Source: Eledone cirrhosa
Taxonomy: Eukaryota
Assembly (NCBI GenBank): GCA_964016885.1
Contig: OZ024749.1
Location: 37,696,001-37,760,000 of the forward strand
Length of the DNA stretch: 64,000 bases
Reading direction: 5' to 3'
This document shows, piece by piece, positions 19,506 through 19,929 of this stretch. The stretch's first letter is position 1, and each line of letters starts with the position of its first letter. The notes under the pieces were generated by a model. The model made no database searches. It was given only the letters and a program-made list of their open reading frames with translations, and had not been told where the DNA came from. Made by a program: the position numbers and the translations under genes.

Positions 19506-19929
19506 ATTTGAATTGGTGCTCTGAAATTACGATATATATATGAATGTATATATAGTGTATTGCAAAATACACTATATATACATTCATATATATATCGCTA
19601 TTTCAGAGCACCAATTCTAATTTTCAATTTCTGCTTGACCGGCAACCGCTCTGTATAATCAGTGCCTGATTATTACTATAATTCTATAAGAATCAAACAT
19701 TCCTGATTTTTAGCAAATAGGCGGAGTACTTTGATAAGCACCAAAGAGTGCGAAACAGAGCTCTGTCAGCTTTATCTCCCCCTGTTTGCTGAAAATTAAA
19801 GTAAGTGAGACTGTCACTACTCTAAAACAATAGCGTAAGCTCTTCGAAATGCTTTTAATTAAGCATACAGTGTATTGCAAAATACACTATATATATATAT
19901 CGCTATTTCAGAGCACCAATTCTAATTTT
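19506..19929 (+). mobile_element. Retrozyme-like element: ~305-315-bp unit with terminal direct repeat and 5' fold-back
   Basis: 19554-19623 recurs at 19869-19929; 19506-19553 is an inverted copy of 19573-19620; a single HHR lies inside. Confidence 0.65.
19706..19796 (+). ncRNA. Type I hammerhead ribozyme, U3-A8 variant, GUC site
   Basis: ct-TTGATAA-gcac(caaaga)gtgc-GAAAC-agagctct-GTC-ag. Distal helix I pairs 19706-19726 with 19776-19796 (one mismatch, two G-U). Confidence 0.8.

What the first reader, a model, noticed from the sequence alone, without database searches (positions are those of the whole stretch)
19506..19929. Candidate circular-RNA-forming retrozyme (~310 nt)
Seen: one well-formed HHR (GUC, 21-bp distal helix I after an internal loop) inside a unit whose first ~65 bp recur 305-315 bp later, giving about 1.2 monomers. 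The 5' end is a fold-back at the hairpin AGTGTATTGCAAAATACACT that copies the CATTCA found only in the adjacent repeat. Known: metazoan non-LTR retrozymes are a few hundred nt long, have one type I HHR and form circRNAs. Inference: reverse transcription went more than once round a circle, or across a tandem.
Basis: partly seen in the sequence, partly recalled or inferred. Interest (0 to 1): 0.75.

Follow-up and report, generated by a model that had tools for sequence, protein, structure and literature searches.

The report
Hammerhead retrozyme copy in TA microsatellite
This is one rearranged copy of a roughly 310-base non-coding repeat carrying a hammerhead ribozyme motif, found at over a thousand candidate sites in this animal genome and, in the 54 sampled, almost always ending at one of two fixed points, usually beside TA repeats; it was likely pasted in by a Penelope-like retrotransposon enzyme, this copy itself would probably not make circular RNA, and it is a new member of a known kind of element.

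Summary
The repeats, the fold-back and a hammerhead (HHR) motif are real at 19506-19929. The HHR is not canonical. Its core reads U3/A8 instead of C3/G8, this copy has lost 5 nt of proximal helix I, and Rfam gives no hit at gathering score.

The locus is one of at least 1,300 candidate copies of a non-coding unit (305 nt here, 316-321 nt in most copies). In 54 sampled loci the 3' ends fall in two fixed classes: 53 of 54 end either in an internal TA stretch or 30 nt later, after a "tail". The 5' sides vary through truncation, a partial tandem unit or an inverted arm. Most copies abut (TA)n.

This is the published insertion footprint of Penelope-like elements (PLEs). Two autonomous PLE families in the same genome show it too, and both carry U3-A8 mini-hammerheads. 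One 5'-truncated PLE copy lies in the same TA tract, 330 bp away.

So this is a retrozyme-type, likely PLE-mobilised element. This copy has only one, damaged HHR. Whether the template is a circle or an uncut multimer stays open; RNA data could not be obtained. It is a new member of a known kind.

The parts
18966..19177 (-). Context, not part of the element: a 5'-truncated copy (about the last 210 nt) of autonomous PLE family 'P2'. It carries that family's U3-A8 mini-hammerhead (TTGAAAAGCAG..CCGCGAAACCGGTA) and its 3' tail ending ..CTTTCTAA, and has (TA)n on both sides.
   Evidence: 94% identical to L044
19180..19505 (.). (TA)n microsatellite with a few CA/TG interruptions. This is the left flank, the presumed target tract.
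19506..19561 (-). Inverted arm: the reverse complement of the unit's last ~55 nt (monomer ~252-303), including the 30-nt tail at its outer end.
   Evidence: (I2)
19556..19575 (+). Natural hairpin AGTGTATT-GCAA-AATACACT of the unit. The inverted and direct arms meet mirror-symmetrically in its loop.
19566..19624 (+). Partial upstream unit (monomer ~252-305), forming a pseudo-LTR-like partial tandem. Tail copy CGCTATTTCAGAGCACCAATTCTAATTTT lies at 19596-19624.
   Evidence: (D4, D5)
19625..19929 (+). One full 305-nt unit (316-321 nt in most copies). It has private deletions of 5 nt in helix I and about 12 nt in the TA-rich stretch before the tail.
19708..19796 (+). Type I hammerhead motif. Distal helix I is 19708-19726 with 19778-19796. 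Core TTGATAA is 19731-19737 (U3..A8). Helix II is 19738-41 with 19748-51. GAAA is 19752-55. Helix III is 19755-58 with 19763-66, loop AGCU. The cut is predicted after C19767.
19901..19929 (+). Terminal 29-nt 'tail' after the internal TA stretch. This is the fixed 3' end of the family (..CCAATTCTAAT[TTT]) and it abuts TA-rich sequence.

Best explanation
Window 19506-19929 is one insertion of an abundant non-coding repeat (unit 305 nt here, 316-321 nt in most copies) that carries a type I hammerhead motif with a U3-A8 core. It was likely copied into a (TA)n microsatellite by the reverse transcriptase-endonuclease of a Penelope-like element (PLE).

Shown directly:
- The family has at least 1,300-1,400 candidate copies.
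- Copies have two fixed kinds of 3' end. One lies in an internal TA stretch. The other lies 30 nt further on, after a 'tail'.
- The 5' sides vary: truncation, a partial extra unit, or an inverted arm.
- Most copies lie in (TA)n.
- The hammerhead helices, and the 3-8 core pair, are kept by compensatory changes between this family and a sister family with a canonical core.

Inferred:
- A PLE endonuclease nicks (TA)n. The TA end would anneal to the RNA's internal (UA)n stretch, or just past the tail, and prime cDNA synthesis.
- The template is longer than one unit, either a circular monomer or an uncut multimer, because arms run through both the unit junction and the ribozyme cut site.
- A second priming event at the other DNA end, or a snap-back at the unit's hairpin as in this mirror-symmetric copy, gives the inverted arm.
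- The hammerhead, probably acting as a dimer through its 12-nt palindromic helix III, would cut multimeric transcripts of the few copies that hold two HHRs in tandem.

This copy has one HHR with a 5-nt deletion, so it is most likely a dead product of the cycle rather than a source of it.
For: Copy number: 1,320 candidates with the 330-nt query and 1,409 with the 101-nt HHR query. 40 candidates were scored in each search.

Architecture in 54 distinct loci (30, 24, 6 duplicates dropped):
- Right end: 36 with tail, 17 in the internal TA stretch, 1 at position 294.
- Left side: 18 have no inverted arm and are 5'-truncated at 14 different positions. 36 have an inverted arm.
- Of the 28 inverted arms whose outer end falls in a fixed class, 21 insertions have the tail on exactly one end, 6 on both (this copy is one of these), and 1 on neither.
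- In the HHR-anchored sample alone (29 loci) right ends are 12 with tail, 16 without, 1 other.
- Flanks are (TA)n in most loci.

The published PLE footprint matches point by point: 5' truncation, partial tandem (pLTR), adjacent inverted 5'-truncated copy, a 30-40 bp tail often at one end only, and a (TA)n bias (Craig et al. 2021, PMC8557442, passages seen).

PLEs in this genome:
- 10,597 GIY-YIG candidates, and 150 of 150 scored pass Pfam's cut-off.
- Family P2 has a 938-aa open frame with RT plus C-terminal GIY-YIG and a CGRSNCGTC linker of the CX2-5CxxC type.
- P1 and P2 copies end in (TA)n with or without a tail, and P1 shows inverted 3' fragments.
- Both carry U3-A8 mini-HHRs.
- A P2 fragment sits in the same TA tract at 18966-19177.

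HHR conservation (98 sequences, 64 from family A and 34 from family B):
- 93.6% of cells are paired, against 40-53% when partners are slid.
- 234 cells are changed on both sides, against 8-58 when slid.
- Compensatory changes lie at five helix I pairs, three helix II pairs and the 3-8 pair. The 3-8 pair is U-A in 64 of 64 family A sequences and C-G in 32 of 34 family B sequences.

Age: mean identity between copies is 95.4%.

A typical copy aligns end to end with Rfam HH9 at 26.5 bits, E 5.8e-05.
Against: - No sequence homology was found between the repeat and any of the 38 sampled PLE loci (nhmmer). These are a tiny sample of more than 10,000 candidates, so no autonomous partner is identified. 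The shared TTCTAA(T) ending with P2 is only 6-7 nt.
- Target-site duplications cannot be read inside (TA)n.
- Self-cleavage of a U3-A8 core with this architecture is untested. The predicted lowest-energy fold pairs AGCUUUG with CAGAGCU instead of forming helices I-proximal and III. Rfam scores are below gathering.
- Only the 40 best-scoring candidates per search were seen, so older or odd copies are unsampled. The first 30 loci were chosen with a query that included the tail, which biases them towards tail-bearing right ends.
- 8 of the 36 inverted arms have outer ends outside the two fixed classes.
- Most of the covariation signal comes from a few events between two families. The number of pairs with a change on both sides (12) is not above shuffles (222 of 500).
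Confidence: 0.8

Rival explanations
1. One reading: this locus is itself a circRNA-forming retrozyme, and its 1.2-unit form arose because reverse transcription went more than once round a circular monomer made by hammerhead cutting and ligation.
For: - Arms in nearly all loci cross both the 305|1 unit junction and the cut site at 143/144, so the template was longer than one unit with that bond intact.
- The circular monomer is predicted to fold much better than shuffles (z -3.2 to -8.0 in 6 units).
- circRNA templates are the published model for retrozymes (PMC7229834 discussion).
Against: - Ends are fixed, not permuted.
- This locus has one HHR only, with a 5-nt deletion in helix I, so two cuts cannot release a unit from its transcript.
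- An uncut multimeric transcript of a 1.x-2.5-unit copy explains the same arms.
- Only about 4-5 sampled loci hold two HHRs in tandem.
- Only 1 of 54 loci has an arm starting at position 144 (L020).
- No RNA data were available.
Confidence: 0.1
2. It is a solo or truncated pseudo-LTR of an autonomous PLE, not a separate non-autonomous family.
For: - PLE pLTRs carry HHRs and give partial tandems and inverted copies (PMC4209133 and PMC8557442).
- Divergent copies lie next to PLE ends in L032 and L044.
Against: - 0 of 54 loci continue into an ORF.
- The unit repeats head to tail at 305-321 nt.
- In L032 the PLE homology shared by 6 other copies stops before a (TA)n tract, and the repeat lies beyond that tract.
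- There is no nhmmer similarity to the 38 PLE loci.
Confidence: 0.05
3. It is a fold-back or MITE-type DNA transposon with terminal inverted repeats that inserts at TA.
For: This copy has 57-69-nt inverted termini (I1 and I2) and lies in TA repeats.
Against: - Only 6 of the 28 insertions whose inverted arm ends in a fixed class have the tail at both ends.
- 18 of 54 loci have no inverted arm at all and are 5'-truncated at variable points next to unique sequence.
- Direct arms exceed one unit.
Confidence: 0.02
4. It is a local satellite or minisatellite fragment made by slippage or unequal crossing-over, and the hammerhead resemblance is accidental.
For: The window is extremely rich in simple repeats.
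Against: - More than 1,300 candidate sites lie on many contigs, and the 54 sampled loci share the same two kinds of 3' end.
- Compensatory changes keep the three helices and the core pair.
Confidence: 0.02

Closest known systems
Metazoan non-LTR retrozymes (Cervera & de la Pena 2020, PMC7229834; Li, Clavereau & Pollet 2026 preprint, 10.64898/2026.07.22.740005)
   Same: - Non-coding unit within the 170-400 nt range.
- One type I HHR per unit.
- GC below 50%.
- Head-to-tail repeats.
- Thousands of copies.
- Coexistence with HHR-bearing PLEs, which those papers propose as the mobilisers.
   Different: - Only short arrays were seen here: direct arms of 202-776 bp, about 0.6-2.5 units, in 54 loci.
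- The core is U3-A8.
- The copies show a site-specific footprint that the parts of those papers I read do not describe for retrozymes: (TA)n sites, two fixed 3' ends, a tail on one side and an inverted arm. 'Microsatellite' occurs 0 times in the main text of PMC7229834. In the preprint it occurs once in another context, and 'tail' occurs 0 times. Supplements were not seen.
- circRNA is shown there and is untested here.
Minimal hammerheads of PLE pseudo-LTRs, including the U3-A8 covariant of Schistosoma mansoni Cercyon elements (Cervera & de la Pena 2014, PMC4209133)
   Same: - The U3-A8 core covariation in place of C3-G8.
- A palindromic helix III that suggests dimeric action.
- Many dispersed single motifs.
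- Pairs of motifs on opposite strands 100-700 bp apart.
   Different: - Here helix I is very long (about 18-20 bp distal plus 4 bp proximal).
- Helix III is a 12-nt palindrome.
- The motif sits in a 305-321-nt non-coding unit, not in the pLTR of an ORF-bearing element.
PLE insertion architecture and non-autonomous PLE derivatives (Craig et al. 2021, PMC8557442)
   Same: - 5' truncation.
- Partial tandem.
- Adjacent inverted copy.
- A 30-40 bp tail often at one end.
- Bias for (TA)n.
- Non-autonomous derivatives with multicopy head-to-tail insertions are described there for Chlamys.
   Different: - Those non-autonomous elements share 3' ends with their autonomous partners. No such homology was found here.
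- The (TA)n bias is reported there for Naiads and hypothesised for Neptune. The PLEs seen here have a C-terminal endonuclease with the CX2-5CxxC linker.
L1 twin-priming inversions (recalled from memory, no call)
   Same: An inverted 5' segment is joined to a direct 3' segment, explained by priming from both DNA ends.
   Different: - Here the second priming site is fixed (an internal TA stretch).
- The template is multi-unit.
- The enzyme would be a GIY-YIG PLE protein.

Membership tests
Metazoan non-LTR retrozymes | Short (about 170-400 nt) non-coding unit | tested here: met
   The unit is 305 nt here and 316-321 nt in most of 36 aligned units. No stop-to-stop frame of 110 aa or more lies within 19566-19929.
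Metazoan non-LTR retrozymes | One type I hammerhead per unit (helix I open, helices II and III closed) | tested here: met
   The topology was read from the sequence. The helices are kept by compensatory changes. The core is the U3-A8 variant in 64 of 64 family A sequences. Catalysis was not tested.
Metazoan non-LTR retrozymes | Head-to-tail tandem arrays | tested here: inconclusive
   There are 1.2 units here. Direct arms are 202-776 bp (median 380) in 54 loci. No long arrays were found among the top-scoring loci, and the rest of the candidates were not examined.
Metazoan non-LTR retrozymes | GC below 50% | tested here: met
   GC is 0.33-0.35 in 6 units.
Metazoan non-LTR retrozymes | Expressed as linear and circular RNA of unit length | not testable with these tools
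Metazoan non-LTR retrozymes | Coexistence with autonomous PLEs carrying HHRs | tested here: met
   There are 10,597 GIY-YIG candidates. An RT plus GIY-YIG open frame of 938 aa was found. PLE mini-HHRs are present.
PLE-type insertion (Craig et al. 2021) | 5' truncation, partial tandem and an adjacent inverted copy | tested here: met
   36 of 54 loci have an inverted arm, and 18 of 54 are plain 5' truncations.
PLE-type insertion (Craig et al. 2021) | A 30-40 bp tail, often at one end only | tested here: met
   The tail is 29-30 nt. It is on exactly one end in 21 of 28 classifiable two-armed insertions. In this copy it is on both ends.
PLE-type insertion (Craig et al. 2021) | Microsatellite target bias | tested here: met
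   Flanks are (TA)n in most loci, and the same holds for PLE families P1 and P2. There is no formal background test, and the genome is very TA-repeat rich.
Solo pLTR of an autonomous PLE | Continuity or homology with an ORF-bearing PLE | tested here: not met
   0 of 54 loci continue into an ORF. There is no nhmmer hit in 38 PLE loci apart from independently inserted copies in L032 and L044.
Rfam hammerhead families (clan CL00010) | Score at or above the family's gathering threshold | tested here: not met
   The window gives 0 hits at gathering. HH9 scores 19.2 bits here and 26.5 bits in a typical copy, against a threshold of 52. The family B copy gives no HHR hit.
MITE / fold-back DNA transposon | Fixed terminal inverted repeats at both ends of all copies | tested here: not met
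   as above.
tRNA-derived SINE | tRNA-like head | tested here: not met
   ARAGORN finds no tRNA in 19400-20000. Other pol III heads were not tested.

The most novel reading that the evidence does not exclude
The two fixed ends (one in the unit's internal UA stretch, one just past a 30-nt tail), the back-to-back arms and the tail-on-one-side rule are the scar of a two-ended, target-primed reverse transcription. In it a Neptune-like PLE enzyme copies one small circular hammerhead RNA from both nicks of a (TA)n site. The family, with its sister family and the PLEs that share the scar, would then be a natural read-out of the still unknown PLE integration mechanism. It would also be direct footprint evidence that PLEs move retrozymes, and the U3-A8 hammerhead would be active as a dimer.
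Probability: 0.3. Interest if true: 0.6.

Novelty: new member of a known kind. Interest (0 to 1): 0.4.

Why it matters
Animal retrozymes are thought to be moved by Penelope-like elements. In the papers I read, that rests on co-occurrence and on pLTR similarity.

Here the repeat and two ORF-bearing PLE families of the same genome share one detailed insertion footprint: TA microsatellites, two fixed 3' ends, a tail on one side, and inverted or partial tandem arms. They also share an unusual U3-A8 hammerhead core. That is independent, sequence-level support for the link. It also gives a large natural data set, more than 1,300 plus more than 2,000 candidate copies, for working out how PLE enzymes prime and resolve insertions.

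The sister-family comparison also shows the C3-G8 to U3-A8 switch as a fixed natural covariation. For this particular locus the result is sobering: it is most likely a dead product, not a circRNA gene.

Tried and rejected
- Rfam at gathering score gave nothing, on the window and on 18 PLE loci. Rfam in E-value mode on the region is swamped by miRNA-like hits to the palindrome and TA repeats, which I take as artefacts of the inverted repeat.
- The search for the autonomous partner by homology found no link. I used blastn and nhmmer, with a profile of 36 units and with one family B unit, against 18 and then 38 PLE loci. The only hits were independently inserted repeat copies.
Expression, cleavage site and circular junction therefore remain untested, and read laying was not used.
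- The circle-versus-multimer question was tried in two ways. Units within one insertion are 95.6-97.5% identical in 5 same-insertion pairs (a sixth same-locus pair, in L020, is a separate insertion at 87.3%), against 95.4% between loci, which is not informative. Arm starts do not pile up at the cut site (1 of 54 at position 144), though small clusters at 155-159, 175-179 and 264-269 were seen and not explained.
- Earlier notes of this scan gave nothing when searched by place and by sequence.
- ARAGORN found no tRNA.
- I did not try to name the organism. No coding exon was recognisable in the window.
- Complex prediction, the structure tools and the large protein searches were not used, because nothing in the question needed them.

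Full report
**Observation**

- The repeat finder gives a 39-nt perfect direct repeat, 19586-19624 equal to 19891-19929, with spacing 305.
- It gives a second direct repeat, 19550-19583 matching 19865-19898 at 94%, with spacing 315.
- It gives a 57-nt, 95% complementary inverted repeat, 19505-19561 with 19566-19622, centred on the hairpin AGTGTATTGCAAAATACACT.
- The tract is embedded in (TA)n.

A hammerhead-like motif lies on the + strand.
- Core TTGATAA is at 19731-19737.
- Helix II is GCAC/GUGC.
- GAAA follows.
- Helix III is ACAG-AGCU-CUGU.
- The cleavage triplet is GUC, with the cut predicted after C19767.
- A long distal helix I of 14+4 bp surrounds a C.C mismatch.

The 35-nt core stretch occurs once in the window and in none of 100 shuffles.

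The motif is not canonical.
- Positions 3 and 8 are U and A, not C and G.
- Rfam reports nothing at gathering score in the whole window.
- In E-value mode Rfam gives only a partial HH9 match of 19.2 bits, E 0.072.
- The predicted lowest-energy fold of the region is not the active hammerhead fold.

**The family**

The window is G000:C9:37696001-37760000, in a 3.0-Gb genome.
- A 330-nt query found 1,320 candidate places (40 scored).
- A 101-nt query limited to the hammerhead found 1,409 (40 scored).
- Aligned units are 95.4% identical on average, so the family is fairly young.

Most units are 316-321 nt. The window copy is 305 nt because of two private deletions.
- About 12 nt are missing from the TA-rich stretch before the tail. 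This removed the CATTCA that most other copies have there.
- 5 nt are missing from the proximal part of helix I. Only one other of 64 distinct hammerhead sequences shares this deletion. It leaves 2 instead of 4 base pairs next to the cut site.

**Ends and architecture**

I mapped the unit (window 19625-19929) onto 54 distinct loci. 30 came and 24. Six loci that repeat the same places were dropped.

Right ends are fixed.
- 36 end at monomer 295-305, after a 29-30-nt tail (CGCTATTTCAGAGCACCAATTCTAAT[TTT]).
- 17 end at 260-290, inside the TA stretch just before the tail.
- 1 ends at 294.
- In the sample anchored on the hammerhead alone, which is not biased by the tail, the counts are 12, 16 and 1 of 29.

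Left sides vary.
- 18 loci are simple 5' truncations, at 14 different positions.
- 36 carry an inverted arm.
- Direct arms are 202-776 bp (median 380). They usually run back across the 305|1 junction into a partial upstream unit.
- Among the 28 two-armed insertions whose inverted arm ends in one of the two fixed classes, the tail is on exactly one end in 21, on both in 6 (the window copy is one of these) and on neither in 1.

Flanks are (TA)n in most loci.

Copies are therefore not circularly permuted.

**Comparison with Penelope-like elements**

The passages I read in Craig et al. 2021 (PMC8557442) describe PLE insertions as follows.
- They are 5'-truncated.
- They are often in partial tandem, forming a pseudo-LTR.
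- They often have an inverted 5'-truncated copy next to them.
- They have a 30-40-bp tail, often present at only one end.
- They have a bias for microsatellites: (TA)n in Naiads, and hypothesised for Neptune through a CX2-5CxxC linker.

The repeat matches each point.

The genome is full of PLEs. A Pfam GIY-YIG search gave 10,597 candidates, and all 150 scored pass the cut-off. I sampled 38 PLE loci.
- P2 copies end either at ..CTTTTTCTTTA(TA)n or about 65 nt later at ..CACTTTCTAA(TA)n.
- Family P1 (L032 type) ends at ..CCCTGTTTTC(AT)n, often followed by a 34-nt tail and more (TA)n. It also shows an inverted 3' fragment joined to a truncated direct copy.
- Both families carry mini-hammerheads with the same U3-A8 core and a palindromic ACCGGU helix III.
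- A 5'-truncated P2 copy lies in the same TA tract as the finding, at 18966-19177 on the minus strand.

I found no sequence homology between the repeat and any sampled PLE. The partner is therefore not identified. The common ending TTCTAA(T)(TA)n of the repeat and P2 is only a lead.

**Is the hammerhead real?**

A sister family B has 2,004 candidates. It is about 72-77% identical over the aligned part of the unit and has a near-identical tail and the same TA sites. Its core is the canonical CTGATGA.

I aligned 64 family A and 34 family B hammerhead regions (A1; one recombinant B row was left out). I counted the pairs of the hammerhead structure that I derived from the sequence.
- 93.6% of cells are paired, against 40-53% when partners are slid by 1-3 columns.
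- 234 cells are changed on both sides, against 8-58 when slid.
- Compensatory changes lie at five helix I pairs, at three helix II pairs (two of them within family A) and at the 3-8 core pair.
- The 3-8 pair is U-A in 64 of 64 A sequences and C-G in 32 of 34 B sequences.

Caveats apply.
- Most of this signal comes from a handful of events between two families.
- The count of pairs with a double change (12) is not above shuffles (222 of 500).
- The structure was derived from these sequences.

The U3-A8 covariation is already in print for PLE hammerheads of Schistosoma mansoni (Cervera & de la Pena 2014, PMC4209133, passage). That paper also argues that short palindromic helix III motifs act as dimers and cleave poorly in vitro.

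A typical family A copy aligns end to end with Rfam HH9 at 26.5 bits, E 5.8e-05, still below the threshold of 52. The family B copy gives no hammerhead hit at all. Rfam is therefore simply insensitive to this architecture.

**Mechanism**

Shown:
- fixed 3' ends of two kinds;
- variable 5' sides;
- arms that cross the unit junction and the cut site;
- (TA)n flanks;
- the same footprint in ORF-bearing PLEs.

Inferred:
- A PLE endonuclease nicks (TA)n.
- The TA end anneals to the RNA's internal (UA)n stretch, giving tail-less ends, or just beyond the tail, giving tail-bearing ends, and primes cDNA synthesis.
- The other DNA end primes a second cDNA, giving the inverted arm. Alternatively the cDNA snaps back at the unit's own hairpin, as the mirror-symmetric junction in this copy suggests.
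- The template was longer than a unit with the 143/144 bond intact, so it was either a ligated circle or an uncut multimer.

The data do not decide between circle and multimer.
- Units within one insertion are no more alike than units of different insertions.
- Only 1 of 54 loci has an arm starting at position 144.
- Only about 4-5 sampled loci hold two hammerheads in tandem, as needed to release a unit.
- The circular monomer is predicted to be well folded, z -3.2 to -8.0 in 6 units.

The window copy has one damaged hammerhead and no second one. It is most likely a product of the cycle, not a source of it.

**What is known, and novelty**

The class is known. Cervera & de la Pena 2020 (PMC7229834; I read the abstract, section 14 and passages) define animal non-LTR retrozymes and propose PLEs as their mobilisers. 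Li et al. 2026 (preprint; I read the abstract, the first part of Results and passages) support this by co-occurrence and pLTR similarity.

In the text I read, neither paper mentions microsatellite targets or a tail for retrozymes. 'Microsatellite' occurs 0 times in the first paper. It occurs once, in another context, in the second, where 'tail' occurs 0 times. I did not see their supplements.

Earlier notes of this scan describe what appears to be the same 310-nt family elsewhere in this genome, and similar families in other genomes, with the same reading. Those notes are unchecked leads, and my calls reach the same architecture independently.

I file this as a new member of a known kind. Its added value is the footprint evidence for PLE mobilisation and a clean natural C3-G8 to U3-A8 switch.

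**Limits**
- Only the top-scoring copies were sampled.
- There is no formal background test for the TA-site preference in a genome that is very rich in TA repeats.
- No autonomous partner was identified.
- Catalysis is untested.

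Noticed in passing
window 934-1231 (-), 18966-19177 (-), 60105-60325 (+): Three 5'-truncated 3' fragments of the ORF-bearing PLE family 'P2' (78-94% identical to L044). Each has a U3-A8 mini-hammerhead (TTGAAAAGCAG..CTGCGAAACCGGTA; one copy each reads GCAC or CCGC), at about 980, 19138 and 60294.
   Followed up: partly
window 58615-58830, with copies near 3761-3978, 13476-14082, 14963-15891, 23337-23892, 32702-33173, 47194-47562, 59764-60139, 63559-63761: A different repeat of about 250 nt occurs at about a dozen places in the window (21 BLAST matches), lying between (TA)n tracts where inspected. 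It starts with a long hairpin (GGAAAATGGTCAAGAC...GTCTTGACCATTTTCC). It gives the recurring pseudo-ORF '..[22 protein letters not shown]'. No hammerhead core was seen in it. It may be another TA-microsatellite-seeking non-autonomous element.
   Followed up: partly
window ~35187 (-) and ~4133 (-): Two further hammerhead-core matches with canonical CUGAnGA...GAAAC. One (CTGACGATAGCTAATAAGCTTGAAACTAGTA) has a palindromic CUAG helix III like PLE mini-hammerheads. The other (CTGATGATTTCTAATGAATGAAAC) recurs in loci L043 and L048.
   Followed up: no
L079-L108 (G000, many contigs): Sister retrozyme family B has at least 2,004 candidates. Copies are 92-96% identical to the query copy over its 141-nt hammerhead region. 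It has a canonical C3-G8 core but a U.U closing pair in helix II and a helix III loop of one base, so it could fold only as a dimer or with a 3-bp stem. Tail and TA sites match family A.
   Followed up: partly
L066:1505-1597 (-) and other typical family A copies; window 19708-19796: The predicted lowest-energy fold pairs AGCUUUG (proximal helix I plus core positions 3-5) with CAGAGCU (the 5' half of helix III) around helix II. This conserved alternative would switch the ribozyme off in a monomer.
   Followed up: no
L044:3580-4540 (approx.): A long tandem array of a 27-nt unit (TTGAAAATATATAGTATAGTATTACTG) lies inside or beside a full-length P2 PLE.
   Followed up: no
window 49454-52019, 52508-53764, 8129-9318, 6086-6811: Kilobase-scale low-complexity minisatellite arrays give very long spurious open frames (up to 817 aa). 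No recognisable coding exon was found in the window.
   Followed up: no
54 family A loci: 5' ends of direct arms cluster loosely at monomer positions 155-159, 175-179 and 264-269, rather than at the ribozyme cut site (143/144). This is unexplained.
   Followed up: partly
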